Shown here: piece after piece, positions 29,190 to 57,113 of the stretch
How the letters are laid out: the number at the start of each line of letters is the position of its first letter
Position numbering within the stretch: the stretch's first letter is position 1
DNA from: Eledone cirrhosa
Lineage: Eukaryota
NCBI GenBank assembly: GCA_964016885.1
Contig: OZ024740.1
Location: 402,504,001-402,568,000, forward strand
DNA length: 64,000 nt
Direction: 5' to 3'
Notes under the pieces: generated by a model
The model's input: only the letters and a program-made list of their open reading frames with translations
What the model was told of the DNA's origin: nothing
Databases searched by the model: none
Translations under genes and position numbers: made by a program

Positions 29190-32002
29190 AACTAACAGCG
29201 CTGCGATCGAATGTGGCTTTTTAGCCCAGCCAATGATCTAAAATGTCTTGCACAGAGTCGGCAACCAAAACATTCACTGGGAATAGCCGGCTGTGGTTGG
29301 AGTTCATGTACTTTTGCATGTCACTTGAGCCCTCCTGCTGATTTACATTCTGTACCACATGCTTGGCAAGCATGATGAGTAGCATCTCCAACAGCAGCCT
29401 GGTAGTCAACCACTGGTCTTACTTTATGACTGCGAAGATGACTTTCGAGTCCAGCTTTGCTTAGGCAGAGTCTCGCACAGACGCTGCATGTCAGCACCAT
29501 AGGAGGACCCTAGCCGTCTGGACGTGCAACAGCAATGCCCTTCCTCACATCCCGCTTTACTTGACAACGATTTTCTTGAGACTGACAGTCAATCCTAGGG
29601 CAGTGCAAGCGTCAGAAAATGCATTGAAAATGTGCTGCATATCAATCTCTGTGCGCTACAAGATCACAATCATCTGCATACAAGAGGTCTCTTATGATTG
29701 ATGTAAATACTTTTGTCTTTGCAGCAAAGCGCCTGATGTTAAATATGCTGCCTGAGGTTCGATATCGGATGTAAACGCCATGCTCGGAATTCCTGAATGC
29801 AATACAGAAAACCATTGCAAAGTATATGGCAAACAGGGTCGGTGCTGGAATATCCCCCTGTTTCACTCCATTTTTTTTACTGAGATAGGCTCCGACATGT
29901 CACCTCCGACATTAACCCAAGCCTTCATGTCGTCATGGAAAGACCTAACTAAAGCAAGGAACTTCTCAGGGCAACCAAGTTTCTGGAGAACCTTCAACAA
30001 TTCATTTCTCTTAACAGTATCGAAAGCTTTTGTCAGATCGACAAAAACCTGATACAGATCCAAACCTTGTTCCCTGCATTTCTCCTGGGGTTGTCTAGCT
30101 GAGAAGATCATATCAGTAGTGCCACGTCCAGCACGAAAACCAGATTGACTTTCAGGAAGAACACAATCTGCAATATGTGTCAGCAGACGGTCCAGAAGCA
30201 CCCTACATAAAACTTTCCCTACGACAGAAAGCAATGATATACCTCTGTAGTTCCCACAATCATTCCTATTACCCTTTCCCTTGTACAAGACCACCATTAC
30301 TGCATCTCTCCAGTCCTCAGGTACGGATCCATTAGCCATATCCTGCCAAACAAAGAGTGAAGATGTTGCAGGAATCTCTCACCACCATATTGTGGAGACC
30401 TTCAACTGTTCAGCTTCGAGATAGCCAATGCAACCTCCACAAGTGTCGGAGGTTCTGCGAGAACTACTTTCACAGGACTTTCTGTTATTTAACGACAGAC
30501 GACTGATTCAAAAGATCATCAAAGTGCTCTCGCCACCTTCGTAGAATTCCTTGTGTGTCACGAAGAAGTTATTTGCCATCCTTGCTGCGAACCGGTGTCA
30601 CCAGAGAAGAAGACGGTCCATAAACCTCACGCAAGAAACTGTACAACAGCTTTGTGTTATTGGAATCTGACGCAGTTAGTATGTCATCAGCATTCTCACT
30701 CCACCACTGATCCTTCATCTGAGAAAGACTCCGCCTAACACGTGATTTTACATCCTTGAGTTCCTCATGCAACGTGTTCCTCTCCTGTGGTTTTGCCGTC
30801 AAGTAGCGTGACAGATCACGCCTATTATCAGCCAACAAGTCTTCTTAATGAGAATGTACATCATTCTCAGTAAACCAGTCCTGACGTTTTCTCTGCACCA
30901 ATCCCAGAACACGCCTGCCTTCATCATAAACCGGCTTTTTAAGGGTCGGCCAATCCTCACCAAGATCTGCAACCTGCATCTCTTCTTGCAATGACCTCTT
31001 CACATTTTCATCCTTAAGACGAGCAGCATTCACTCTTTTGTGCAGGGCAACACCAGGAGCCCGGATTTTACGTTTAGTGATTAGTTTCACTTTTGCGCGT
31101 ACCAGGCGGTGGTCCGTCCAGCACTCAGCTCCACGAAGAGCACGAACACACTTCACATCCTGTCTGTCACGCATCCTGACTAGGACGTAGTCCAAAAGAT
31201 GCCATTCCCTAGTTGCAGGATGCATCCATGTGGTCTTGAATTTGTTCTTTTGTTGGAACATGGTGTTGGTAACACACAGATCCAGCTCCTCACACATCTG
31301 CAGCAGGAGCATACCATTGTTGTTACACTTTCCCACCCATGCCTTCCAATTACATTCCATGTGTTAAAATCCCTACCCACTCTAGCATTAAAGTCACCAT
31401 GCACGATGACTTTGTCTGCCTGAGGGATATTTCTTAAAACATCTTTCAAGGCACGGTAAAAGGACATTTTTTATTCATCGACAGAATTCATAGTTGGAGC
31501 ATACACACTCACCAGGGTCGCATATCTTCCTTTGTCCAGCGGAATTCTCATGGACATAAGACGCTCACTAATCCCTACTTGGAAATCTAATTTATTCACA
31601 AGAACAGTCTTAACAGCAAATGCAACCCCAGCCTCTCTTCTGGTTCCTTCATCTCTTCCTTTCCAGAAGAAAGTATATTCTCCACAAAATTCTGTAAGAT
31701 GACCATCTCCAGCTAACCTCGTCTCAGATAAAGCCACGATGTCAAGATCGTAACGTCGAAGCTCCTTTGCAACAAGAGCGGTCCTTCGTTCAGGACGCTC
31801 GCTCCAAGGAATCCCTGTCAAGCAGCGTCCGTACGTTCCAGCAGCCAAGACTAAATGCCGTGTTTCGTTCTATTACAATGGCACGATGACGAGTGGGCTC
31901 AGGCTGTGATAACCTGGGGCCCCTGCCCTTATTGCCAATTATCTTTTTTGTTCCAGAACCTAAATTGCCAATTATCTCTTTTATATTATTCTGGAACATC
32001 AT
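29190..32002 (-). mobile_element. RTE-clade LINE, decayed and internally deleted
   Basis: APE: LGCWNVRTLLD, RRTALVAKELRRYDLDIVALSETRL, GDFNARVG, TDH. RT: NYRGISLL, ESQSGFRAGRGT, FVDLTKAFD, KQGD.PAPTLF, LLYADD. C-terminal zinc fingers; multiple frameshifts. Confidence 0.93.
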
Positions 32003-32710: not shown

Positions 32711-33381
32711 AAAAAATATACTCGAAATTAAGAGAAAGAGATAACAAATACATACATGCATACTCATGCGCATGTGTACTCGTGTTTATTATTATAGGCA
32801 ATTGGGAATATGCAGAAAAAAAATTCATCGCTCCTTAAATACTCATACCTAACAATAGAACATGTAATATTTGTTATAAGTTGCGCGTCTACAAAAATCT
32901 ATGAGGTGTATATAGGGCTCCCGGAAAACTGGGAACACATTCTCAGTAAAAAGATGCTTTCCTATAAAGATGTTCTTAGAATTATAAACCCTTACACCCA
33001 AACGAAACTTGTCAATATAAACAGAGTAATAAACACAATTCTTACAATAATAAGCTTAACTACACACTGTATGCACGGAATAAGAAGGATATGAGGACAG
33101 CAAATGTCCGATTTGAGAAAGAATAAAAAAACAACTGCGTGGAATGTTTGTTCCTTAATTTGTAATATCTGACGTCTCACTGGAATGCAACATCTCATCT
33201 TTGGAAAATGCAACTAGAAATTCAATTACGAGAATAGAGATTTATAATAAATAAGAAAACACATATATATATATATATGTATATATATTTCGTATCTCCA
33301 AAGACATACGGTTTTAGGAAGCCGTAGCTATGCAAACACCTGGGGTCTAACGCCCTCTGGTGATGTTCAGCAAAGGGGACA

Positions 33382-33425
33382 ACCGTCTATGCATTTCAGG
33401 CTTAACTGGCCTTCATCAGGACGGC
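33382..33425 (-). ncRNA. Minimal type I hammerhead ribozyme
   Basis: Minus strand reads gccgtc CTGATGA aggc-cagttaa-gcct GAAA tgca TA gacggt: intact core, stems I and II, palindromic stem III. Confidence 0.9.
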
Positions 33426-34506
33426 CCCTCCCACCGCTTGCGACTGCTGGACTAGAAGACAGGCGAGAATATATACTTTTCTCGTCTGTGTAAATGAGGT
33501 GATTAATCTCATTTGTATATAAAGCTGCATAAGTTGGCTCAACTTATAATAAAAAAAAAAATAGGATTTCGCTTCAAGCATAGCTTTATACAATATGTAT
33601 AAACATGTTGTATCTCCAAAGAAATATTAGAATATATAAGAACAAGATATTTGCAAGAATTTATAGTGATGTGAATGAATAGAAATGGTGGTACTGCATC
33701 TACGTAATATAAAAATGTGCTATTAATCAACATATAGTCGGTATGTAACTTTCATTTGTTACAAGTGTTGCACATTTGAGTTTTAAGATCGTTTCGAGTG
33801 TGGATGTAAGTTTTGAGATAGCAATTTCAATGCAGAAATAAATATCCTCGAAGGACCACATTACAAATTCTGTTGTAATCTGTTTGTTTTTAGACAATTA
33901 TAAAATCCTGAATATAAAGAGATTCAAGGTAATCAGAATTAGTCGTTTAATATTTCATTTGAAAGAGAAAGCTACGCAATATCATTTCTATATATAATTT
34001 CATAATCGAATGATCTATCGCGTCCGCTAACACATCGGTGATCTGTTGCCCCAGGGGCTGGACAGCAACATTGCCAAATGCTTTATAGTAGGGAGAATGA
34101 TCTTTACACCACAGGTCACATTTTCGTGTGAGTTGACACGATCACAGATATTTTCTTCGGTCGGTACCTCATCGGGCTAGGATCCACCTACGATAGAGCT
34201 CTCGAAAGAAAAGGCCATTGATGCCAGTGCTTATTACTACTGAACACATAGGGTATAGGTAGAGGTAGTCAGAGAAAAGTTTTATCAAAGCTGTTGTTAC
34301 AAGGATAGTTGAATTGGCGGGTAAAGCGTCATTTTCTTCATAATTAGAACATCGAATAGGTTTGGTAATCGTGTGTTGCATTCCTTTTCTGGGTAGCGAA
34401 GCAAAATAAAAAAGAAGGTACGTATTAGCGAATGCTTCTATTTCATTCAGCAGATGTATGATCACATATCTCAAGCCAAGACCATTCCTTATTTTAGATG
34501 TATCAA

Positions 34507-34621: not shown

Positions 34622-35534
34622 TGCTGATAGCTAAATATGACAACAATCATAGTGGCGGTGGTGTTGATGACAAAAATTATGTTAGTGGCAATGATGATCC
34701 GATGATGTGAATGAATATGAAGATGCCCACGACACTGTAAAGCAGACCCCCCGACACCAGTTAGGAAACTGCGTGATCGTTCAAATGAAGATGCATTTTA
34801 TAACAATAAAAGTAACTATATTTTTAAAATAAACGGGAAATATAGAAAGTATTAAAGGAATAGAGAAGGTAAAAGATAATATGGGAGCATCAATGAACAC
34901 GGACATAAATTAAATAAAAGAATAGCGAGAATAAAATAAGATGCAAAGATAATTATATACTAGCAAATGAATTGCTAATGAAATACGATGTCTTACTATT
35001 TATACTTGAGATTAAAATGAAGGCTGGAAAAACAAGGAAAAAGAATTTAGACCATCCCTGCCCCGCCGAAAAAAACTGTGACGGAAGGAAAAGGAAAAGA
35101 TTGTAGAGCGCCAACGAAAATCAGGAAGTAATAAGAAGGAAGAATTGACAGATAATGCTTCTGAATGATATTTGAGATTGTCTACAGCGGAACCTACGAC
35201 GCCAAATAGCACTGCTCCCGTTCGTTTTGGTGAGAGTATTTGACGCCGGTGAAGTTCTGTAGCATCCTATGTTTGAACGACATTACATGACAGTAATGGG
35301 CAGGTTGCCAACAGCGACAGTTATAATGTTTGGGTTCATTCCTCGTCAGTCATAGTTTTAAGACAACAAGCAAAGATCAGGCTGTGGTGGGGTGGAGTGG
35401 AATGAGGTGAGCGGCGATTTTGATAGTGAAAATGGTCCAATCTTGCTATCATATACTTATGTACACACACAGGCTTGCGTGCGCCCGCACACTCACACAC
35501 ACACAAATATATAAACGTATACATAAATACATAC

Positions 35535-35687
<153 letters not shown>

Positions 35688-35892
35688 AATATATATATAT
35701 AAATATATATATATAGAATATATAAATATTACATATATATAAATATTACACATACAAACATCTATATATATAACTATCTATATATCTCTCTCTTTATATA
35801 TATATATAGATAGATATATAGATGTCTGTATGTGTAATATTTATATATATGTACATATATGAAGAGAGAGAGAGAGAGAGGGATGGGGAGAG

Positions 35893-35959
<67 letters not shown>

Positions 35960-36580
35960 GTTCAAATGTATTTAGAGAATTATATATGCTAGTGTATAAT
36001 TGCTATGTTGTTTCAGAATTAGCCCACTGCAGTTAAATATTATATTGTTCTGAAAAAAAGGTAGATTTAGGGAGAAAAAGTTGGAAGGACAGACATAAAG
36101 AAAGAGGAAATATAACCGAATATATAAATGGAAAAATTAGGTTTCAAACCATTTAAAAGGTAATTCATCCAGCTATATATATATATAATTGGATGCTTAG
36201 TAAAATCGAATCTTTGGCGGTGTGCAAGCAAATTCGACCTACTATATGAAGAGTTAGCAAAGCACTCGCAAGGTAGGTCCTTAGAGTAATAACATACGTT
36301 TAAATAGCTTGACAAATTGAACATTGTGGTAGGCAAAATCTAAAACACAATACCAAAGTAACGAAAGAACTAACAGGTAGAGAAAAAATACACCTGGACA
36401 AATCAAACGTTATGCGTTTAAAGTGTTTCTATAAAATCCCAAATCAAATATCAAACATACGTAACTGGCAAGCTCGTGGTATTCAAGATCGAACAGAGGA
36501 TATATTTCATCAATAGGATGTCGTTCTACCAAAGAACACGGAGACATACTAAAAGCAAATCGGATTTTTAGTTGTCACTC

Positions 36581-36740
<160 letters not shown>

Positions 36741-36868
36741 ATGTAGGAGGTGAGTTTTATTGTAGTACAATAAAGCAATGCAGATATCGGATAAAAAGCA
36801 CTCTACAGTTTGTAGGACTGGAGTATACATAATATATAAGATCGAAAGATGATTAAAAGAGTTCCATG

Positions 36869-36939
36869 TATTTTATTATGCGCATTTCAAAAACAAATAT
36901 CATCATGCAATAGCATTTGTGTTTTCATCAGATAAAATA
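36869..36939 (-). ncRNA. Type I hammerhead ribozyme
   Basis: Minus strand reads tattttat CTGATGA [36-nt stem-loop II] GAAA tgcgca TA ataaaata. Confidence 0.85.
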
Positions 36940-37042
36940 GGAAGACATGATATGAAGGATAAAAACACTTGTGGATAAAAACATATGTTCATTTAAAACT
37001 GCACTATCCACAAGTGTTTTTAACCTTCATGTCATGTCTTCC

Positions 37043-37113
37043 TATTTTATCTGATGAAAACACAAATGTTATTGCATGATGATATTTGTTTTTGAAACGC
37101 GCATAATAAAATA
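37043..37113 (+). ncRNA. Type I hammerhead ribozyme (mirror copy, one stem III mismatch)
   Basis: tattttat CTGATGA (37051) [stem II] GAAA (37094) cgcgca TA ataaaata. Confidence 0.75.
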
Positions 37114-37214
37114 CATGGAACTCTTTTAACCATCTTTTGATCTTATATATTATATGTATATATATACATATATGTATATGTATACATATATATATAAATG
37201 TATATATATATACA

Positions 37215-43777: not shown

Positions 43778-44535
43778 CTCGTGTGTGCGTTTGTTTGTTT
43801 GTGTGCTTGTGTGTTTGTGTGTTTGTTTGTTTGTGTGCTTGTGTGTGTCTGTGTGTTTGGGTGTGTGTTTGCATACATATATGTATATATAATAATAAAA
43901 ATTCTGAGAACTCAAATCTTAGACAACAAAACAATAGCACACAACAGCAAAGGTACATTGATAATAACAACAATAACAATAAAAGAAACCAACAGCAACA
44001 GTACAATCAGCATCAACCACGAAAAACATGGCAAAACAATCAAGAAAACTTGTATGAAAGATACTTCTGTGAAAGATTCCTGGAGCCGTTTAGTGTTTGG
44101 CCTATAGAATTAGCTTGCGTATTTATGTCAAGTCTAATATGAGATGTTTGTATCATGATGGAAATAGAGGAAAGTAGAGAGAAAGCAAGGAAAGAAAATA
44201 AACTAACAAAAACGAACAAAGATATAAAGTATAAAGAAGAAACTGAATAATCGATATGTGTGATTATTTTGAAAAAAATGGTGGTGTGGTGTGATGCTGT
44301 TTCGTGGTTCTGTTGTTTTCACTGACGATTTTGTTTCTAACTGATGTTTGACGGTAATAGGGGGTGGTAGACATATCATGAAGACTGAAATGGTTGCTCT
44401 AAAGACGGAATATCCGGATAAAGTTATCCTGTCAAAGAAGGAGAAGCGCAATGTCAATGAAGCAGGTTAATAAGCCGAAGGCGACGTTAGTATTTTTCTT
44501 CAATGCCACCAATTAACTGGGTGGTCTTCAACGAG

Positions 44536-44663
<128 letters not shown>

Positions 44664-44718
44664 TATATATATACTGTATATATTACTATATATTACTATA
44701 TATTACTATATATACTGT

Positions 44719-44775
<57 letters not shown>

Positions 44776-44829
44776 CACACATATATATATATATACACAT
44801 ATATATATTATTTTTATACACATACACAC

Positions 44830-44916
<87 letters not shown>

Positions 44917-45249
44917 TACACATCATAGCAAATATATATATGTATGTATGTGTATAAATAAATATAAATATGTGTATATATATGTAAATATATATGTGTA
45001 TGTATATATAAATATATATATATATGGGAGAGAGAGAGAGACAGATTACAAACATTTTTCTTATACTTCTTTTTACTTCTTCTTCTTCATCTTTCCTTCT
45101 TTTCCGTCGTCGTCGTCGTCTTTCTTCTACACTATCTTCTTCCAAATTAGTCTGTCAATTAGACAGACAGAATAGGGGAATGACAGAAAAAGTAGCAGGG
45201 AAAGATCTATTATTATTACAATAAATTATCATTCTTGTTATACTTCAAT

Positions 45250-48200
45250 GTCATCATCATCATCCCAACAACATATTCACCATCACCATCACCATCATCC
45301 CAACAACACATCACCATCACCATCATCATCATCCCAACAACACATTCACCATCACCATCACCATCATCCCAACAATACATTCACCATCACCATCATCATC
45401 ATCCCAAAAACACATTCACCATCACCATCACCATCATCCCAACAACACATTCACCATCACCATCAACATCATCCCAACAACGCATTCACCATCACCATCA
45501 CCATCATCCCAACAACATATTCACCATCACCATCATCGTCATCCGAACAACACATTCACCATCACCATCATCCGAACAACATATTCACCATCGCCATCAT
45601 CATCATCCCAACAACATATTCACCATCACCATCCTCATCATCCAAACAACATATTCACCATCACGATCACCATCATCCCAACAACACATTCACCATCACC
45701 ATCATCATCATCCCAACAACACATTCACCATCACCATCAACATCCTCCCAACAACATATCCACCATCACCATCATCATCATCGCAACAACATATTCACCA
45801 TCACCATCATCCGAACAACATATTCACCATCACCATCGTCCGAACAACATATTCACCATCACCATCATCCCAACAACACATTCACCATCACCATCACCAT
45901 CACCATCATCCCAACAACATATTCACCATCACCCTCACCATCACCATCATCCCAACAACATATTCACCATCACCATCACCATCACCTTCATCCCAACAAA
46001 ACATTCACCATCACCATCATCCCAACAACATATCCACCATCACCATCACCATCATCCCAACAGCACTTTCACCATCATCATCACCATCATCCCAACAACA
46101 TATTCACCATCACTATCATCATCATCCCAACAAAATATTCACCATCACCATCATCATCATCCCAACAACGCATTCACCATCACCATCACCATCATCCCAA
46201 CAACATATTCACCATCACCATCACCGTCATCCGAACAACACATTCACCATCACCATCATCCGAACAACATATTCACCATCGCCATCATCATCATCCCAAC
46301 AACATATTCACCATCACCATCCTCATCATCCCAACAACACATTCACCATCACCATCACCATCATCCCAACAACATATTCACCATCACCATCATCATCATC
46401 CCAACAACATATTCACCAGCACCATCACCATCATCCCAACAACATATTCACCATCACTATCATCATTATCCCAACAACATATTCACCATCAACATCATCA
46501 TCATCCCAACAACATATTCACCATCACCATCATCATCATACAAAAACAACATATTCACCATCACCATCATCATCATCCCAACAGCATATTCACCATCATC
46601 ATCATCATCATCATCATCATCACAACAACACATTCACCATCACCATCACCATCATCCCAACAACACATTCACCATCACCATCACAATCATCCCAACAACA
46701 TATCCACTATCACCATCACCATCATACGAACAACACATTCACATTCACCATCACCATCATCCGAACAACATATTCACCATCACCATCATCATCATCCCAA
46801 CAACATATTCACCATCACCATCATCCCAACAACATCATCATCATCCCAACAACAAATTCACCATCACCATCACCATCATCCCAACAACATATTCACCATC
46901 ACCCTCACCATCATCCCAACAACACATTCATCATCACCATCACCATCACCATCATCCCAACAACACATTCACCATCACCATCACCATCATCCCAACAACA
47001 CATTCACCATCACCATCACAATCATCCCAACAACATATCCACTATCACCATCACCATCATACGAACAACACATTCACATTCACCATCACCATCATCCGAA
47101 CAACATATTCACCATCACGATCATCATCATCCCAACAACATATTCACCATCACCATCATCCCAACAACATCATCATCATCCCAACAACATATTCACCATC
47201 ACCATCACCATCATCCCAACAACATATTCACCATCACCACCACCATCATCCCAACAACACATTCACCATCACCATCATCATCATCCCAACAACATATCCA
47301 CCATCACCATCATCATCATCCCAACAACATATTCACCATCACCATCATCATCATCCCAACAACATATTCAACATCACCATCATCATTATCCCAACAACAT
47401 ATTCACCATCACCATCATCATCATCCCAACAACAAATACACCATCACCATCATCATCATCCCAACAACATATTTACCATCACCATCACCATCATCCCAAC
47501 AACATATTCAACATCATCATCATCATCATCATCATCACAACAACACATTCACCATCACCATCATCATCATCCCAACAACATATTCACCATCACCATCACC
47601 ATCATCCGAACAACATATTCACCATCACCATCATCATCATCCCAACAACATATTCACCATCACCATCATCATCATCCCAACAACACATTCAACATCACCA
47701 TCATCCCAACAACATATTCACCATCACCATCACCATCATCAGCATCTCAACAACATATTCACCATCACCATCATCATCATCCCAACAACATATTCACCAT
47801 CACCATCATCATCATCATCATCCCAACAACACATTCACCATCACCATCAACATCATCCCAACAACACATTCACCATCACCATCATCATCATCCCAACAAC
47901 ATATCCACCATGACCATCATCATCATCATCATCCCAACAACATATTCACCATCACCATCATCATCATCCCAACAACATATTCACCATCACCATTACCATC
48001 ATCCCGACAACATATTCACCATCACGATCACCATCATCCCAACAACACATTCACCATCACCATCACCATCATCCGAACAACACATTCACCATCACTATCA
48101 TCATCATCTCAACAACACATTCAGCATCACCATCACCATCATCCGAACAACACATTCACCATCACCATCATCCGAACAACATATTCACCATCACCATCAT

Positions 48201-51200
48201 CATCATCATCCCAACAACATATTCACCATCACCATCATCATCATCCCAACAACACATTCACCATCACCATCACCATCATCCCAACAACATATTCACCATC
48301 ACCATCACCATCATCCCAACAACACATTCACCATCACCATCATCATCATCCCAACAACATATCCACCATCACCATCATCATCATCATCCCAACAACACAT
48401 TCACCATCATCATCATCCCAACAACATATTCACGATCACCATCATCATCATCCCAACAACATATTCACCATCACCGTCCTCATCATCCCAACAACATATT
48501 CACCATCACCATCATCCCAACAACATATTCACCATCAGCATCACCATCATCATCATCCCAACAACACATTCACCATCACCATCACCATCACCATCCTCCC
48601 AACAACATATTCACCATCACCATCATCATCATCCCAACAACATATTCACCATCACCATCACCATCATCCCAACAACACATTCACCATCACTATGATCATG
48701 ACCATCACCATCATCCCAACAACATATTCACCATCACCATCACCATCATACCAACAATATATTCACCATCACCATCACCATCATCCCAACAACATATTCA
48801 CCATCACCATCATCATCATCCCAACAACATATTCACCATCAGCATCACCATCATCATCATCCCAACAACATATCCACCATCACCAGCATCATCATTATCA
48901 TCCCAACAACATATTCACTATCACCATCATCATCATCCCAACAACATATTCACCATCACCATCACCATCATCCCAACAACATATTGACCATCACGATCAC
49001 CATCATCCCAACAACATATTCACCATCACATCACCATAATCATCATCCCAACAAAATATTCACCATCACCATCATCATCATCCCAACAACACATTCACCC
49101 TCACCATCAAAATCATCCCAACAACATAGCCACCATCACCATCATCATCATCCCAACAACATATTCACCATCATCATCATCATCATCATCCCAACAACAC
49201 ATTCACCATCACCATCACCATCATCCCAACAACATATTCACCATGACCATCATCATCATCCCAACAACATATTCACCATGACCATCATCACCATCATCCC
49301 AACAACACATTCACCATCACCATCACAATCATCCCAACAACCCATTCACCATCACCATCACCATCATCCCAACAACACATTCACCATCACCATCACCATC
49401 ATCCGAACAACATATTCACCATCACCATCATCATCATCCCAACAACATATTCACCATCACCATCATCATCATCCCAACGACACATTCACCTATCACCATC
49501 ACCATCATCCAAACAACACATTCACCATCACCATCATCCGAACAACATATTCACCATCACCATCATCATCATCCCAACAACATATTCACCATCACCATCA
49601 TTATCATCCCAACAACACATTCACCATCACCATCATCCCAACAACATATTCACCATTACCATCACCATCATCCCAACAACACATTCACCATCACCATTAT
49701 CATCATCCCAACAACACATTCACCATCACCATCAGCATCATCCCAACAACATATACACCATCACCATCACCGTCATCCGAACAACATATTCACCATCACC
49801 ATCATCATCAGCCCAACAACACATTCACCATCACCATCACCATCATCCGAACAACACATTCACCATCACCATCATCCCAACAACACATTCACTATCACCA
49901 TCATCATCATCCCAACAACATATTCACCATCACCATCATCATCATCCCAACAACATATTCACCATCACCATCACCATCACAATCATCCCAACAACATATT
50001 CACCATCACCATTAACATCACCACCATCATCATCCCAACAACATATTCACCATCACCATCATCATCATCCCAACAACATATTCACCATCACGATCACCAT
50101 CATCCCAAAAACATATTCACCATCTCATCACCATCAACATCATCCCAACAACACAATCACTATCACCATCATCATCATCCCAACAACATATTCACCATCA
50201 CCATCACCATCATCCCAACAGCACATTCACCATCACCATCACCATCATCATTAAACCAACAACACATTCACCATCACCATCATCATCATCCCAACAACAT
50301 ATTCACCATCACCATCATCATCATCCCAACAACATATTCAACATCACCATCACCATCATCCCAACAAAATATTCACCATCACCATCACCATCATCTCAAC
50401 AATATATTCGCCATCACCATCACCATCATCATCATCCAAACAACACATTCACCATCACCATCACCATCATCCCAACAACACATTCACCATCACCATCATC
50501 ATCATCCCAACAACATATCCACCATCACCATCACCATCATCCCAACAACACATTCACCATCACCATCATCATCATCCCAACAACATATTCACCATCACCA
50601 TCACCATCATCCCAACAACATATCCACCATCACCATCACCATCACCATCACCCCAACAACATATCTACCATCACCATCACCTTCATCCCAACAACATATT
50701 CACCATCACCATCACCATCATCCCAACAACATATTCACCATCACCATCATCCAAACAACACATTCACCATCACCACCATCATCCCAACAACATATTCACC
50801 ATCACCATCCTCATCATCCCAACAACATATTCACCATCACCATCATCATCATCGTCATCCCAACAACATATTCACTATCACCTTCATCATCATCCCAACT
50901 ACATATTCACCATCACCATCACCATCACCATCATCCCAACAACATATTCACCATCACCATCACCATCATCCCAACAGCACATTCACCATCACCATCTCCA
51001 TCATCATTAAACCAACAACACATTCACCATCACCATCATCATCATCCTAACAACATATTCACCATCACCATCATCATCATCCCAACAACATATTCAACAT
51101 CACCATCACCATCATCCCAACAAAATATTCACCATCACCATCATCGTCATCCCAACAACACATTCACCATCACCATCATCATCATCCCAACAACATATCC

Positions 51201-54200
51201 ACCATCACCATCACCATCATCCCAACAACACATTCACCATCACCATCATCCCAACAACATATCCACCATCACCATCACCATCATCCCAACAACACATTCA
51301 CCATCACCATCATCCCAACAACATATCCACCATCACCATCACCATCACCATCACCCCAACAACATATGTACCATCACCATCACCATCATCCCAACAACAT
51401 ATTCACCATCACCATCACCATCATCCCAACAACACATTCACCATCACCATCACCTTCATCCCAACAACATATTCACCATGACCATCACCATCATCCCAAC
51501 AACACATTCAGCATCACCATCATCATCATCATCCCAACAACATATTCACCATCACCATCAGCATCATCCCAACAACATATTCACCATCACCATCACCTTC
51601 ATCCCAACAACATATTCACCATCACCATCACCATCATCCCAACAACATATTCACCATCACCATCATCCCAACAACACATTCACCATCACCATCATCATCA
51701 TCCCAACAACATATTCACCATCACCATCACCATCATCCCAACAACATATCCACCATCACCATCACCATCACCATCACCCCAACAACATATCTACCATCAC
51801 CATCATCATCATCCCAACAACATATCCACCATCACCATCACCATCATCCCAACAACACATTCACCATCACCATCATCCCAACAACATATCCACCATCACC
51901 ATCACCATCATCCCAACAACACATTCACCATCACCATCATCCCAACAACATATCCACCATCACCATCACCATCACCATCACCCCAACAACATATGTACCA
52001 TCACCATCACCATCATCCCAACAACATATTCACCATCACCATCACCATCATGCAAACAACACACTCACCATCACTACCATCATCCCAACAACACATTCAC
52101 CATCTCCATCATCATCATCCCAACAACACATTCAGCATCACCATCATCATCATCATCCCAACAACATATTCACCATCACCATCAGCATCATCCCAACAAC
52201 ATATTCACCATCACCATCATCATCATCCCAACAACATATTCACCATCACCATCCTCATCATCCCAACAACACATTCACCATCACCATCACCTTCATCCCA
52301 ACAACATATTCACCATGACCATCACCATCATCCCAACAACACATTCACCATCACCATCATCATCATCCCAACAACATGTCCACCATCACCATCATCATTA
52401 TCCCAACAACATATTCACCATCACCATCATCATCATCCCAACAACATATTCACCATCACCATCATCATTATCCCAACAACATATTCACCATCACCATCAT
52501 CATCATCATCATCCGAACAACACGTTCACCATCACCATCATCATCATCCCAACAGCATATTCACCATCACCATCATCATTATCCCAACAACATATTCACC
52601 ATCACCATCATCCCAACAACATATTCACCATCAGCATTACCATCATCATTATCCCAACAACAAATTCACCATCACCATCACCATCACCATCCTCCCAACA
52701 ACATATTCACCATCAGCATTACCATCATCATCATCCCAACAACAAATTCACCATCACCATCACCATCACCATCATCCCAACAACACATTCACCATCACTA
52801 TGATCATGACCATCACCATCATCCCAACAACATATTCACAATCACCACCACCATCATCCCAACAACATATTCACCATCAATATCATCATCATCCCAACAA
52901 CATATTCACCATCACCATCATCATCATCCCAACAACATATTCACCATCACCATCATCAACATCCCAACAACATATTCACCATCACCATCACCATCATCAT
53001 CGTCCCAACAACATATCCACCATCAGTATCATCATCATCATCATCCCAACAACACATTCACCATCACCATCATTATCATCCCAACAGCATATTCACCATC
53101 ACCATCATCATCATCCCAACAACATATTCACCATCACCATCACCATCATCCCAACAACATATTCACCATCACGATCACCATCATCCCAACAACATATTCA
53201 CAATCACATCACCATCATCATCATCCCAACAAAATATTCACCATCACCATCATCATCATCCCAACAACACATTCACCCTCACCATCAAAATCATCCCAAC
53301 AACATATCCACCATCACCATCATCATCATCCCAACAACATATTCACCATCATCATCATCATCATCCCAACAAAATATTCACCATCACCATCATCATCATC
53401 CCAACAACACATTCATCATCACCATCACCATCATCCCAACAACATATTCACCATCACCATCATCATCATCCCAACAACATATTCACCATGACCATCATCA
53501 TCATCATCCCAACAACACATTCACCATCACCATCAACATCATCCCAACAACACATTCACCATCACCATCACCATCATCCCAACAACACATTCACCATCAC
53601 CATCACCATCATCCTAACAACATATCCACCATCACCATCATCCGAACAACATATTCACCATCACCATCACCATCATCCGAACAACACATTCACCATCACC
53701 ATCATCATCATCCCAACAACATATTCACCATCACCATCATCATCATCCCAACGACACATTCACCATCACCATCACCATCATCCAAACAACACATTCACCA
53801 TCACCATCATCCGAACAACATATTCACCATCACCATCATCCCAACAACATATACACCATCACCATCACCATCATCCGAACAACACATTCACCATCACCAT
53901 CATCCCAACAAGATATACACCATCACCATCACCATCATCCGAACAACACACTCACCATCACCATCACCATCATCCGAACAACATATTCACCATCACCATC
54001 ATCATCATCCCAACAACATTTTCACCATCACCATCATCATCATCCCAACAACACATTCACCATCACCATCATCCGAACAACACATTCACCATCACCATCA
54101 TCCGAACAAGATATTCACCATCACCATCATCATCATCCCAACAACATATTCACCATCACCATCATCATCATCATCCCAACAACATATTCACCATCACCAT

Positions 54201-54540
54201 TATCATCATCCCAACAACATATTCACCATCACCATCACCATCACAATGAACCCAACAACATATTCACCATCACCATTACCATCACCACCATCATCATCCC
54301 AACAACATATTCACCATCACCATCATCATCATCCCAACAACATATTCACCATCACGATCACCATCATCCCAACAACATATTCACCATCACCATCACCATC
54401 ACAATGAACCCAACAACACATTCACCATCACCATTACCATCACCACCATCATCATCCCAACAACACATTCACCATCACCATCACCATCATCCCAACAGCA
54501 CATTCACCATCACCATCACCATCAACATCCTCACCATCAT
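45250..54540. repeat. 9.3-kb minisatellite/satellite, unit CCCAACAACA(T/C)ATT + (CAC/CAT)n, mostly about 26-38 bp
   Basis: Direct reading; roughly 290 units estimated from length; the plus strand is almost G-free. Confidence 0.95.
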
Positions 54541-54618
54541 TGACGCAGTTTGTGGTTATCTTCTCGTTCAATGTTTAGAATGTATATGTTATGTTGATGC
54601 TGTTATATTTGAAGACAT

Positions 54619-54718
54619 TGCCGAAGTTAACTTTGCCTTACGTCCTTACGGGTTCGATAAAATAAAGTACCAGTAATACACTGAGATAATTTCTGGCCTT
54701 GTGCCAAAAGTAGAAACA
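54619..54718 (+). mobile_element. SINE 3' half
   Basis: ctttgcctt..tccttacgggttcgataaaataaagtacc..ggccttgtgccaaaagtagaaac. Confidence 0.75.
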
Positions 54719-54824
54719 ATTATTATTATTATTAATATTATTGTTGTTCTTGCTTTTCCATTCATATATAGGATGTTATATGATGTTATGGAAATAACAC
54801 CAGTAGTTGACAGGTACTTTATTT

Positions 54825-55950
54825 TAAGGACACAAATGCGGCACCATCTCGGTGATGTTTAAGTCAGAAGACATCGCTATAAAACACTGAGTGAGCCCTT
54901 GAAACAACAGAATGGTCATTATATACCCATCCCTCATGGGATAAATAACTGTTAAAGTCCGCATTCCCAGGTTCCACCACAACCAATATGTGGTGGCTAC
55001 TGGGAAGCTTGATTGTGGAGGAATCAGATGCCATCCCGATCGAGGCAACCTGAACAACATGGGAGGACGGGTCGGTGTTGGTCTGGAAATACTTCTCCAG
55101 ATGAGTCCTGAGGAACTGAGAAAAGTCCCGGACCACACCCGTGTTCAAAACGTGACGTCTCTGCAAGTAATGACCGAGAGCAAAAGGCCGCAGCTTCATC
55201 TGCGGCGAAACAATTCACTTGCAAGCCTTAGTTAAAAAATGCAAGGGGGCGAAACCATTCACCGCTGTCGATGCCGGGGTGGGGACCATTACCAACACCA
55301 GCACCGTCAACACCATCAGCAGCAACACCAGCGGAAACACCACCACCAACTTTGACCACCCACAGGGAAGACGAGGACAGCTCTCCCATTTCCCCTCCCA
55401 TAAATACACACATTGACACAAACACAAAACCAAACATACACAGAGACACAGACACAGACACCTAGTCTTCCATCAGCGAAGATGAGGTAAATCCTAATTC
55501 AAAAATCAAAAAAGACTCACGAAAAATAACTGCACACATACAAAAACACCAAAATCTGAAAATGTAGACACCACCCACACAACGACCTCAAACACTTCCA
55601 CAACAACAACACAACCACAGGCACCGCCCCCATAACCCCCCAAACGCAAACAACCACAACAAACGCAAGAACTAAAGAACACAAAAAACAACTGAAATCG
55701 CAAACTCCACAGCAACAACAAAACACACAAAACTTGGTGCTTCTAAGAAACGCCAACGAGGAATTGATGGCCCTCATAGCACAAAGTCAAGAAACCGAGA
55801 AAGAAGGGGAGATTTTTGGAACGAGCCCATTTCGCGGGCCAGAAGATTTAATTGCGGTACGAATATCGATCGACATCCACAAAGGAATTATGGAGAGGTT
55901 TCCTCGTGATGGGGGAATCCAGAATATAAGAGCATCAAGCAGATTGCTTT
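54825..55950 (+). mobile_element. Possible LINE ORF1 (gag-like) remnant
   Basis: GC-richer block. Across a frameshift, QVMTESKRP runs into FICGETIHLQA, resembling a degenerate zinc knuckle, followed by a low-complexity Pro/Thr/Lys region. Confidence 0.4.
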
Positions 55951-57113
55951 AGGACTTCCCAAAAGAAACTCTATTAAATATGGAGGCCCAACCACAAGGC
56001 CTCGGAAGGTTAGTAACCTTTCCCGTTCTTCTGTACCCTTCCAGCATCGCCATCCATGTGATTATGAATTGCAGTTTAAAGTGCTGGATTTTACCCCGTA
56101 CAATTACATACAGGAATAACGTGGATAAGTTCACGGATTTCTGGCTATAAAGTCCTTTGCTTTAAGACCAATAATTATTTTTCTTTTCCTTTGTCTACAT
56201 ATGTACACATAATCCCTCTGAAAAATTGAAGCAACACCTTGTGAAACCTAAACAATCAATGAAGACAACCACATAAAGAAACAAACATGATATTCAGCAA
56301 GGCAAATAGTTGGATGCAAAAATAAACTAATGACATTTTTAAACCAATGGCATTACTATCGAGAATTCTAGTGATTTGTGCTTTGGTGGGATATAAAAAT
56401 TCCAAAACAGTCGCACATTCACACACATGCGCAATATAAACATACAGCATTTAGACAAGAGAGAATCTCCATGAAACTGTATCTCACAAAAAGAACTGAC
56501 ACTTGAAATAGAAAAATGGTATCCTATCTTTACATTGTCCGCACTGCAAATCCTTCTTTGTGCCACCCAAATAAAATTTAGCTACAGCTAATACGTAAAG
56601 TGATATTTCTTACCTCCAATGCTTCTGTATATACGTTGTTTTCAACACTGATGATGGACCAAAATTCAAACCCCTGTCCATACATTATTTCCACGGTCCT
56701 TGGTAGGATCGTAAAGGCTGGTCACACTAAGCTACTTTAATGGCATCAACCTTTAGACTGTAATGAATTTCATAACACAGAATAGGACCACTTGTTCAAT
56801 ACTGACGTGATATGCAATCAGGTGGAGTCCCTATAAAGATAACGGTTCTCATAACCCAAACCATAAAACAATTCTGGAGTGGTATTCTGTAATGAAAAGC
56901 GTTTCATCTAATCATTCAGAAGAAAAATCCCATCTGCTAAACATGTGGAGTAAAGGTAATTTAAGAGTATTATGTCGGGTAAAGTTGAAAATCTAAAAGA
57001 AAACAAGAAGAGTAGTCAGCTGAAACTACTATCCCTAGTACGCTGCCACACACTGTTCTGAAAACGCCGAGTTAGATTCTTTCGTCCTTGTTTCTGGGAG
57101 CTGGGAAATTTAC

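What the first reader, a model, noticed from the sequence alone, without database searches (positions are those of the whole stretch)
33292..33622. Intact hammerhead within a 318-bp unit bounded by a 13-bp direct repeat: retrozyme-like monomer
Seen: a perfect core at 33382-33425 (-). Stem I extends across a 4-nt bulge (agggg/cccct), extra hairpins lie at about 33459-33520, and gtatctccaaaga occurs at both 33292 and 33610. Established: non-LTR retrozyme monomers are a few hundred nt, HHR-delimited and can form circular RNAs; loop II-stem I bulge contacts speed cleavage. Inference: the best candidate here for an active ribozyme. The direct repeat may be terminal redundancy or a TSD.
Basis: partly seen in the sequence, partly recalled or inferred. 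Interest (0 to 1): 0.75.

Follow-up and report, generated by a model that had tools for sequence, protein, structure and literature searches.

The report
Ordinary hammerhead retrozyme retrocopy
This is one 352-base copy of a short non-coding mobile repeat that carries a hammerhead self-cutting RNA motif and is present at least hundreds of times in this genome; it was likely pasted into a TA repeat by the enzymes of Penelope-like retrotransposons, and as a lone copy with a single cut site it would probably not give an RNA circle.

Summary
A type I hammerhead (HHR) with all invariant core bases lies on the minus strand at 33425-33382, and the 13-mer occurs at 33292 and 33610. The 13-mer is the core of a 34-nt repeat: the start of the unit copied again at the 3' end. 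It is not a target-site duplication.

The element (33626-33275, minus) is 1.1 units of an abundant dispersed family. The own genome holds 453 exact copies of the 35-nt HHR and 2256 first-look candidates.

In 93 insertion arms from 60 loci:
- 5' ends are scattered. 3' ends pile at unit position 34 or 71-75.
- 63 of 93 arms abut (TA)n.
- 34 pairs lie head-to-head and none tail-to-tail.
- 19 of 20 scorable pairs have one short and one long end, 39 nt apart.

This is the insertion signature published for Penelope-like elements (PLEs), which are very abundant here. The family therefore fits animal non-LTR retrozymes.

Copies decay neutrally, so the intact core is expected by chance. This copy has one cut site and a one-base-pair helix III, so weak cleavage and no 318-nt circle are predicted. 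No RNA data could be obtained. Verdict: new member of a known kind, low to moderate interest.

The parts
33275..33626 (-). Whole insertion arm: unit positions 1-318 plus a 34-nt repeat of unit 1-34 (1.1 units), single arm with a 'short' 3' end
   Evidence: Other genomic copies match from 33626 down to 33280.
33309..33626 (-). One 318-nt unit (unit 1 = 33626). It differs from the family majority at 12 of 318 positions and has 41.5% G+C.
33275..33308 (-).
   Evidence: It is 29/34 identical to 33626-33593 and 32/34 to the family majority. 26 arms end exactly at unit 34.
33372..33431 (-). Type I hammerhead: helix I (6 bp, 4-nt bulge, 5-6 bp), CUGAUGA, helix II (4 bp, 7-nt loop), GAAA, helix III reduced to A-U around UGCA
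33387..33388 (-). Predicted cleavage site, after A17 (33388) and before G1.1 (33387). Cleavage is predicted, not shown.
   Evidence: Direct reading of the motif
33389..33394 (-). AUGCAU palindrome (A15.1, tetraloop UGCA, U16.1). It would allow two hammerheads to pair into a double hammerhead.
   Evidence: Published behaviour of the same architecture is in PMC7229834, section 15.
33459..33514 (-). Two hairpins of the unit body (33514-33492 and 33489-33459)
   Evidence: Circular MFE -80.4 kcal/mol, z -2.43 against 200 dinucleotide shuffles
33549..33563 (-). T-run and TA-rich stretch (unit 64-78), where the family's alternative 'long' 3' ends lie (unit 71-75)
33263..33274 (.). (TA)6 directly 3' of the arm. 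'ttatatat' lies 5 nt before its 5' end. This is the likely TA-microsatellite target.
   Evidence: In the family, 63 of 93 arms have (TA)4+ within 24 nt downstream, against 9% background.

Best explanation
The stretch 33626-33275 (minus strand) is one retrocopy of an abundant, non-coding, hammerhead-bearing repeat of the animal 'non-LTR retrozyme' kind, likely inserted into a (TA)n microsatellite by Penelope-like-element (PLE) reverse transcriptase/endonuclease. 

Shown here:
- The hammerhead motif is present.
- The unit is 318 nt and wraps from position 318 to 1 in other copies.
- 5' ends are scattered and 3' ends are fixed at unit 34 or about 73, next to (TA)n.
- Head-to-head inverted arms are frequent.
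- Copies decay neutrally.
- PLE endonuclease genes are abundant in the same genome.

Inferred life cycle:
1. Source copies with two or more tandem units are transcribed.
2. The hammerheads, probably paired through the AUGCAU palindrome, cut after A239 of the unit.
3. A host ligase circularises the unit-length RNA.
4. A PLE enzyme nicks a TA repeat, and the TA-rich DNA end primes at one of two UA-rich sites of the RNA (unit 26-34, or about 73-80).
5. Reverse transcription runs through the cleavage site and around the unit junction, then stops at a random point.
6. A second, inverted arm usually starts from the other site.

The window copy is a single arm with a short end. It has one hammerhead and no partner, so it is predicted to be a decaying by-product that cleaves poorly and cannot release a circle.
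For: Family and copy number:
- The 361-nt query gives 2256 first-look candidates. 40 were scored, giving 124 matches, and full-length ones are 90-93% identical.
- The 35-nt HHR with N7 free has 453 exact hits (224 + 229), and 0 for the reversed control.

Sample: 60 loci. These are the window, the 29 best full-length matches (biased toward one unit or more), and the first 30 perfect-HHR sites on contig C1. Duplicates were removed by coordinate (227 HSPs reduced to 201). They contain 93 same-strand arms.

Architecture:
- 3' ends fall at unit 28-36 in 34 arms (26 exactly at 34), at 60-86 in 40, at 37-59 in 6, and elsewhere in 13.
- (TA)4+ lies within 24 nt downstream in 63 of 93 arms, against 9% of random 24-nt windows of the same loci.
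- (TA)n lies at both outer ends of 16 of 34 inverted pairs, and on both sides of 6 of 25 single arms.
- 5' ends are spread over the unit.
- 46 of 93 arms are longer than 318 nt and cross the 318-to-1 junction.
- There are 34 head-to-head pairs within 40 nt and 0 tail-to-tail.
- Of the 20 pairs with two canonical ends, 19 are short+long, 1 is long+long and 0 are short+short (binomial p 2e-5).

These features match the passages of Craig et al. 2021 (PMC8557442, passages read): 5' truncation, partial tandems, an inverted 5'-truncated copy at the 5' end, a 30-40-bp tail often at only one end, and (TA)n targets.

PLEs in the same genome:
- A GIY-YIG domain scores E 1.7e-8.
- That query gives 18462 first-look candidates, and 150 of 150 scored reach E<=5e-72.
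- A PLE 3' region with its own minimal HHR has two alternative 3' ends, each abutting (TA)n. It lies beside retrozyme arms in several loci.

Independence from a coding body:
- No ORF of 130 aa or more lies between 31361 and 37136.
- None of the 18 ORFs of >=190 aa in the 60 loci that were scanned with Pfam is a PLE ORF contiguous with an arm.
- The 300 nt upstream of the 25 single arms share no common sequence apart from unit pieces and one unrelated pair.

Neutral decay:
- Divergence from the majority is 2.9% overall, 3.2% in the HHR against 2.5% elsewhere (non-CpG sites), and 1.7% in the 12 core bases (11 of 634).

The window's three HHR changes are tolerated: N7 C>T, A-U>G.U, G-C>G.U.

Literature:
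- PMC7229834 (sections 13, 14, 15, 17 read) defines such elements and the one-pair helix III type.
- bioRxiv 10.64898/2026.07.22.740005 (Results and Discussion read) derives them from PLEs.
Against: - No RNA evidence could be obtained, so transcription, cleavage and circles are untested here.
- Rfam's hammerhead models report neither this copy, nor other copies, nor the PLE's own HHR at E<=10.
- The motif's folding energy is not better than shuffles (z -0.81). In the whole-unit circular MFE the HHR helices are replaced by other pairings.
- Helix II closes with A-U, not the usual G-C. From my recollection, G10.1 helps bind a metal ion, so this may lower activity.
- Within the family there is almost no covariation. 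One C-G>T-A change sits in the two arms of a single insertion and one A-T>G-C occurs elsewhere. All other changes are one-sided.
- No PLE with sequence homology to the unit was found. In 30 of 30 PLE loci the best BLAST E-value was 0.09, on the T-run only. An alignment with the HHR-bearing PLE 3' region shows only the core and TA-rich ends. The partner is therefore unidentified.
- A circular template cannot be told from a multimeric linear one.
- 14 of 34 inverted pairs have a non-canonical end.
- In the Xenopus preprint only 1 of 9 dimer elements cleaved in vitro.
Confidence: 0.85

Rival explanations
1. The window copy is itself a working ribozyme locus that yields a circular RNA of about 318 nt.
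For: All invariant core bases and helices I and II are intact. The unit folds into a branched structure somewhat better than shuffles (z -2.43). Retrozyme circles are documented in other animals (PMC7229834, sections read).
Against: There is one hammerhead and one cut site in 1.1 units, so no unit-length fragment can be released. Helix III is one pair, and the comparable axolotl monomer cleaved 6% in 1 h (PMC7229834, section 15). The copy carries 12 private changes and has no inverted or tandem partner. Intactness is the neutral expectation at 2.9% divergence.
Confidence: 0.05
2. The unit is only the terminal repeat (pLTR) of an autonomous Penelope-like element, and the copies are ordinary 5'-truncated PLE tails. 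An earlier follow-up in another genome (e1-7908855) reached this verdict for a similar finding.
For: PLE pLTRs carry type I hammerheads and give the same tandem/inverted/tail pattern (PMC8557442 passages; PMC7229834). PLEs are very abundant here. Heavy 5' truncation could hide a rare long parent. Arms reach only 740 nt.
Against: 46 of 93 arms pass from unit 318 straight into unit 1, and arms reach 2.3 units without any other sequence. None of the 18 ORFs of >=190 aa in the 60 loci that were scanned with Pfam is a PLE ORF contiguous with an arm. There is no shared upstream body in 25 single arms. There is no unit homology within 1.5 kb of the endonuclease in 30 of 30 PLE loci.
Confidence: 0.07
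3. It is a SINE-like element mobilised by LINEs, not PLEs.
For: LINE-type domains exist in the genome: Exo_endo_phos in L034 and an RVT_1 fragment at window 29863-30339. LINEs also give 5' truncation and twin-priming inversions.
Against: 3' ends carry no A-tail. They end at two internal positions next to (TA)n. No tRNA, 7SL or 5S head appears at E<=10. The 39-nt short/long asymmetry and the tandem wrap-around are PLE traits (PMC8557442 passages).
Confidence: 0.03
4. It is satellite DNA spread by unequal crossing-over or segmental duplication, and the hammerhead is a passenger.
For: The first animal hammerheads were described in newt 'satellite' repeats of about 330 bp (as cited in PMC7229834). 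Units are joined head to tail.
Against: Copies are dispersed over many contigs. The 48 perfect tandem HHR pairs are all at separate places, and none is contiguous with another, so no array of 3 or more with perfect sites was seen. Only 1 of 93 arms reaches two units. Ends are fixed and flanks unrelated.
Confidence: 0.02

Closest known systems
Amphibian-type non-LTR retrozymes / newt 'satellite 2' repeats (HHR_Amex1, about 330-nt units; Cervera & de la Pena 2020, PMC7229834)
   Same: A type I hammerhead sits inside a unit of about 320-330 nt with G+C under 50%. Helix III is a single pair capped by a palindromic tetraloop, so dimeric action is expected. There are no LTRs or ORF, and PLEs coexist in the genome.
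   Different: Here most insertions are 0.3-1.5 units and none of the sampled ones exceeds 2.3 units, whereas axolotl arrays reach 180 units (preprint 10.64898/2026.07.22.740005). Helix II closes with A-U. Expression and circles were not shown for this genome. The unit sequences were not compared, because the published sequences were not on hand.
Penelope-like elements and their pLTR hammerheads (Craig et al. 2021, PMC8557442; Cervera & de la Pena 2014, as cited there)
   Same: The insertion anatomy matches: 5' truncation, partial tandems, an inverted 5'-truncated copy at the 5' end, an extension of about 39 nt at one end only, and TA-microsatellite targets. Both carry a hammerhead with a minimal helix III.
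   Different: This element has no RT/GIY-YIG ORF, the whole element is one 318-nt period, and there is no detectable homology to the two PLE families examined here. It works like a passenger of PLEs and is not a PLE.
Plant LTR retrozymes (Cervera et al. 2016, PMC4918200; search listing and abstract only)
   Same: Both are non-autonomous retroelements whose RNA is cut by hammerheads and circularised.
   Different: Plant elements have type III hammerheads in LTRs, PBS/PPT, 4-bp TSDs and 600-1000-nt circles, and are mobilised by Gypsy. None of these applies here.
Schistosome Sm-alpha SINE-like hammerhead repeats (recalled, no paper read here)
   Same: A dispersed short non-coding retroelement with a type I hammerhead and a short helix III.
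   Different: This is recalled only. Its ends and target sites were not compared.

Membership tests
Type I hammerhead ribozyme (motif) | Invariant core: C3-U4-G5-A6-N7-G8-A9, G12-A13-A14, an A15.1-U16.1 pair, and H17 not G | tested here: met
   CTGATGA is at 33419-33413, GAAA at 33397-33394, A33394/T33389 pair, and A17 is at 33388.
Type I hammerhead ribozyme (motif) | Three helices around the core, with helix I open and helices II and III closed by loops | tested here: met
   Helix I is 6 bp, a 4-nt bulge, then 5-6 bp. Helix II is 4 bp with a 7-nt loop. Helix III is 1 bp with a tetraloop. The descriptor finds 1 hit in the window and 0 in 200 simulations.
Type I hammerhead ribozyme (motif) | Match to Rfam hammerhead covariance models (an operational test, not a defining feature) | tested here: not met
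   There is no hammerhead hit at gathering score in 64 kb, nor at E<=10 in 1001 nt or 91 nt. Other family copies and the PLE's own HHR are missed too. The models evidently do not cover one-pair helix III variants, which are described in print (PMC7229834, section 15).
Type I hammerhead ribozyme (motif) | Site-specific self-cleavage | not testable with these tools
   This needs in vitro transcription with Mg2+.
Animal non-LTR retrozyme (Cervera & de la Pena 2020) | Units of 150-450 bp joined head to tail, each with a type I hammerhead | tested here: met
   At family level, 46 of 93 arms cross the 318-to-1 junction. 6 arms hold two complete HHRs 323-332 nt apart. There are 48 perfect tandem pairs genome-wide. 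The window copy itself holds only 1.1 units and one HHR.
Animal non-LTR retrozyme (Cervera & de la Pena 2020) | No LTRs and no coding capacity; G+C under 50% | tested here: met
   The only terminal repeat is the 34-nt redundancy. No ORF of 130 aa or more lies between 31361 and 37136. G+C is 41.5%. PBS/PPT motifs were not searched for.
Animal non-LTR retrozyme (Cervera & de la Pena 2020) | Expressed as linear and circular unit-length RNA | not testable with these tools
   No RNA holder was listed. The three runs laid are DNA contigs.
Animal non-LTR retrozyme (Cervera & de la Pena 2020) | Coexistence with Penelope-like elements | tested here: met
   GIY-YIG scores E 1.7e-8. There are 18462 first-look candidates, and 150 of 150 scored reach E<=5e-72.
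PLE-type insertion signature (Craig et al. 2021) | Frequent 5' truncation with a constant 3' end, and partial tandems | tested here: met
   5' ends are spread over the unit. 74 of 93 arms have 3' ends at unit 28-36 or 60-86.
PLE-type insertion signature (Craig et al. 2021) | An inverted 5'-truncated copy adjacent to the 5' end | tested here: met
   There are 34 head-to-head pairs and 0 tail-to-tail. The window copy has no inverted partner.
PLE-type insertion signature (Craig et al. 2021) | A 30-40-bp extension ('tail'), often at only one end | tested here: met
   The two end classes are 39 nt apart (34 against 73). 19 of 20 scorable pairs carry one of each (p 2e-5).
PLE-type insertion signature (Craig et al. 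2021) | Microsatellite target, (TA)n | tested here: met
   63 of 93 arms have (TA)n downstream, against 9% background. Both outer ends carry it in 16 of 34 pairs. In the window, (TA)6 lies at 33274-33263.
Penelope-like element proper | Encodes RT plus GIY-YIG endonuclease | tested here: not met
   There is no ORF in or contiguous with the unit. The element is therefore filed as a passenger, not a PLE.
LINE-dependent SINE | Pol III-type head (tRNA/7SL/5S) and an A-rich or LINE-like tail with target-site duplications | tested here: not met
   No such RNA family appears at E<=10 in 33000-34000. 3' ends are internal unit positions followed by (TA)n, with no A-tail. TSDs cannot be read inside TA repeats.

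The most novel reading that the evidence does not exclude
The family's scars record how Penelope-like enzymes copy a ribozyme RNA. Priming occurs at two fixed UA-rich sites 39 nt apart, inside TA microsatellites. The template runs through the hammerhead cut site and around the unit junction, so it is circular or uncut multimeric. The two arms of an inverted insertion almost always use different sites. If general, this gives a concrete two-nick, two-primer model of PLE integration and direct genomic evidence that animal retrozymes are moved in trans by PLEs.
Probability: 0.4. Interest if true: 0.55.

Novelty: new member of a known kind. Interest (0 to 1): 0.3.

Why it matters
The locus itself is ordinary: it is one decaying copy among hundreds to thousands. 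The family is a clean natural data set on an open question, namely which machinery moves animal retrozymes and from what template.

All 93 alignments that cover unit 230-250 (the cleavage site, 239|240) run through it without a break, and 5' ends show no pile-up there (3 of 93 within 236-246, against about 3 expected). Linear cleaved monomers were therefore not the templates.

The fixed short and long ends, used one each in inverted pairs, match the unexplained 'tail' of PLE insertions and give numbers a mechanism must explain.

There is also a practical point. Rfam's hammerhead models miss this whole class, so scans that rely on them will under-count such ribozymes.

Tried and rejected
- RNA evidence: the look-up of sequencing runs (kind rna) listed no RNA holder. 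The three coded runs are DNA-type contigs of one sample. Unique flanks have depth about 3.5 and the element has a summed depth of 2e4-2e5, which the tool says is not a copy number. The joints 'goes back 318' and 'opposite strands' only repeat what the genome shows.
- Rfam: there was no hammerhead hit in any of 4 searches.
- Thermodynamics of the motif alone were not informative.
- Covariation within the family was too young to be informative.
- PLE partner: BLAST of the unit against 30 PLE endonuclease loci found nothing beyond the T-run. Aligning the HHR-to-3'-end stretch with the HHR-bearing PLE 3' region showed no colinear homology. A resemblance between '...GATACGAAATAT' (unit 13-24) and the PLE's '...GAAACGAAATAT' 3' end is too short to count.
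- Trimer arrays: the three-site pattern was not accepted because of its length. The two-site pattern was run instead.
- A 5'-end hot spot at unit 1, where the window copy starts: several apparent cases continue upstream or have deletions, so it was not kept.
- TSD: one cannot be read inside TA repeats. The 13-mer as a TSD is rejected.
- Earlier notes of this scan: nothing near the window or by sequence.
- Supplements of the bioRxiv preprint are closed, and those of PMC7229834 were not opened. They may list families or models (for example Supplementary Figures S7 and S9) that bear on novelty.
Full report
**1. What is in the sequence**

On the minus strand the stretch 33431-33372 reads as follows:
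- helix I 5' strand GGAGGGGCCGTC
- CTGATGA (33419-33413)
- AGGC-cagttaa-GCCT (33412-33398)
- GAAA (33397-33394)
- ATGCAT (33394-33389)
- A (33388)
- GACGGT-tgt/ttgt-CCCCT...

This is a type I hammerhead. Helix I is open, with six pairs, a 4-nt bulge and five or six more pairs. Helix II has four pairs and a 7-nt loop. Helix III is reduced to the A15.1-U16.1 pair around the palindromic tetraloop UGCA.

The 13-mer is exact at 33292 and 33610. It is the core of a 34-nt repeat at a spacing of 318, with 29 of 34 positions identical.

*Is it more than chance?*
- The bare core pattern is not significant: 4 matches against 2.5 expected.
- A descriptor that also demands helices I and II and the U-H step finds only this site in the window and none in 200 first-order Markov simulations.

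*Results against the reading:*
- No Rfam hammerhead model reports the site: gathering scan of 64 kb, E<=10 on 1001 nt and on 91 nt.
- The 67-nt motif folds no better than shuffles (z -0.81).
- Helix II closes with A-U instead of the usual G-C. This point is recalled from memory and its effect is untested.

**2. It is one copy of an abundant family**

- The own genome is 3.0 Gb, and the window lies on contig C1. The 361-nt query gives 2256 first-look candidates. Only 40 were scored, yielding 124 matches, and full-length copies are 90-93% identical to the window copy.
- The 35-nt hammerhead with N7 free occurs exactly 453 times (224 + 229). The reversed control gives 0.
- Most copies read CTGACGA. 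The window's CTGATGA is a CpG-to-TpG change at the free position N7.
- The window unit differs from the family majority at 12 of 318 positions.
- Its other two hammerhead changes turn an A-U pair and a G-C pair of helix I into G.U.

**3. Anatomy of the insertions**

I mapped the unit (unit 1 = 33626, unit 318 = 33309) on 60 loci:
- the window;
- the 29 best full-length matches, a set biased toward one unit or more;
- the first 30 perfect-hammerhead sites on C1, five of which are the same places seen twice.

Duplicates were removed by coordinate (227 alignments reduced to 201). Chaining gave 93 same-strand arms.

*3' ends:*

| Unit position of 3' end | Arms |
|---|---|
| 28-36 (26 exactly at 34) | 34 |
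| 60-86 (27 at 71-75) | 40 |
| 37-59 | 6 |
| elsewhere | 13 |

*Other features:*
- The 24 nt beyond the 3' end hold (TA)4 or more in 63 of 93 arms, against 9% of random windows of the same loci.
- TA repeats lie at both outer ends of 16 of 34 inverted pairs, and on both sides of 6 of 25 single arms. The TA repeat is therefore the target, not an added tail.
- 5' ends are spread over the whole unit.
- 46 of 93 arms exceed 318 nt and run from unit 318 straight into unit 1. Only one reaches two units.
- 34 arm pairs lie head to head within 40 nt, and none tail to tail.
- Of the 20 pairs in which both arms have canonical ends, 19 combine one short (about 34) and one long (about 73) end. One is long+long and none is short+short (p 2e-5). 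The other 14 pairs have at least one odd end.

*The window copy.* It is a single arm: unit 1-318 plus 1-34, followed by (TA)6, with 'ttatatat' 5 nt before its 5' end. The second copy of the 34-mer matches the family majority at 32 of 34 positions, and arms at 34 other places end there too. It is therefore terminal redundancy of a template longer than one unit, not a target-site duplication.

**4. What moves it**

Craig et al. 2021 (PMC8557442, passages read) list the marks of Penelope-like element (PLE) insertions:
- strong 5' truncation;
- partial tandems;
- an inverted 5'-truncated copy at the 5' end;
- a 30-40-bp extension often present at only one end;
- for some clades, (TA)n targets.

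Every one of these is met by this family. The short and long ends differ by 39 nt.

PLEs are very abundant here:
- A GIY-YIG domain scores E 1.7e-8.
- It gives 18462 first-look candidates, and all 150 scored reach E<=5e-72.
- One PLE 3' region lies about 210 nt after a GIY-YIG-bearing ORF in L026 (Pfam E 2e-4, 22.0 bits against a cut-off of 22.6; not recovered when the longer ORF was scanned).
- That region carries its own minimal hammerhead and has two alternative 3' ends, each abutting (TA)n.
- It lies beside retrozyme arms in several loci.

I found no sequence homology between the unit and either PLE family, so the partner is not identified.

*The unit is not a PLE tail:*
- No arm continues into an ORF.
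- The upstream flanks of the 25 single arms share nothing consistent.
- The period is 318 through 2.3 units.

*A LINE-driven SINE is unlikely:*
- There is no A-tail.
- There is no tRNA, 7SL or 5S head.

*A satellite is unlikely:*
- Copies are dispersed.
- The 48 perfect tandem hammerhead pairs are all at separate places, with none contiguous.

**5. Template and ribozyme**

*Template.* All 93 alignments that cover unit 230-250 cross the cleavage site, and only 3 of 93 5' ends fall within 236-246, about the uniform expectation. The template was therefore uncut or religated: a circle or a multimer. Which of the two cannot be told from DNA.

*Decay.* Copies decay neutrally:
- 2.9% divergence from the majority overall;
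- CpG sites 5.4%;
- hammerhead 3.2% against 2.5% elsewhere (non-CpG);
- 12 core bases 1.7%.

Of the 47 copies sampled without regard to the hammerhead, 31 are as intact as the window's. The intact core here is therefore the neutral expectation, not a sign of selection at this locus.

*Predicted activity.*
- Only 6 of 93 arms carry two complete hammerheads, 323-332 nt apart. These, and not the window copy, could release unit-length RNA.
- For the same helix III architecture, Cervera & de la Pena 2020 (PMC7229834, section 15 read) measured 6% cleavage in 1 h for a monomer and efficient cleavage for dimers.
- Li, Clavereau & Pollet 2026 (bioRxiv 10.64898/2026.07.22.740005, Results read) saw cleavage in only 1 of 9 Xenopus dimers.

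**6. Comparison and verdict**

The family fits animal non-LTR retrozymes on every criterion that could be tested:
- type I hammerhead;
- head-to-tail units of 150-450 bp;
- no LTR or ORF;
- G+C of 41.5%;
- PLEs in the same genome.

Its hammerhead is of the amphibian or 'satellite 2' type.

Expression and circles could not be tested. No RNA holder was listed, and the runs laid are DNA contigs.

Earlier AI notes from other genomes describe the same TA-microsatellite and PLE pattern (e1-7810660, e1-7881736), and one PLE-tail verdict (e1-7908855). I took these as leads, and I tested the PLE-tail rival here.

Verdict: a new member of a known kind. The locus is ordinary. The family-level end asymmetry is the one point worth a specialist's attention.

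Noticed in passing
window 36824-36977 and 37005-37158: A second head-to-head inverted pair: 154-nt arms, 95% complementary, 27 nt apart, flanked by long TA/TG microsatellites. Each arm carries a hammerhead-like motif (CTGATGA...GAAA at 36885-36931 minus and 37051-37097 plus) with a 7-bp helix I. It has the same insertion style but is a different family. It did not pass my strict descriptor.
   Followed up: partly
L026:705-1200 (also L008, L015, L030, L038, L065, L082): The 3' region of a PLE, about 210 nt after a GIY-YIG-bearing ORF, has its own minimal hammerhead (CTGAAGAGGTCACAG...GAAA). It has two alternative 3' ends about 60 nt apart, each abutting (TA)n. It often lies within a few hundred bases of retrozyme arms.
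   Followed up: partly
own genome: A 138-aa PLE endonuclease query gives 18462 first-look candidates, and all 150 scored are 82-100% identical. PLEs appear to be a dominant repeat class in this genome.
   Followed up: no
window 44000-56000: GC skew is extreme (-0.63 to -0.96). The region holds very long open frames on the plus strand (45248-49039, 1263 aa; 51366-54407, 1013 aa) with only a weak, partial Pfam hit. It is probably a strand-biased simple repeat.
   Followed up: no
window 29863-30339 (minus): An ORF fragment with an RVT_1 reverse-transcriptase domain (E 1.6e-17), about 3 kb from the finding. Its element type was not determined.
   Followed up: no
window 35450-35970: A TA microsatellite of about 500 bp, 2 kb from the finding. 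It is the kind of target these elements use, and it holds no copy of this family.
   Followed up: no
family copies listed: A poly-C tract downstream of the hammerhead (unit about 281-286) varies from about 5 to about 20 C among copies. Most copies also carry about 6 more bases after helix I than the window copy, so typical units are 323-332 nt rather than 318.
   Followed up: no
Rfam searches: Rfam 15 hammerhead models miss both the retrozyme hammerhead and the PLE hammerhead even at E<=10 on short inputs. Scans based on them will not see this class.
   Followed up: partly
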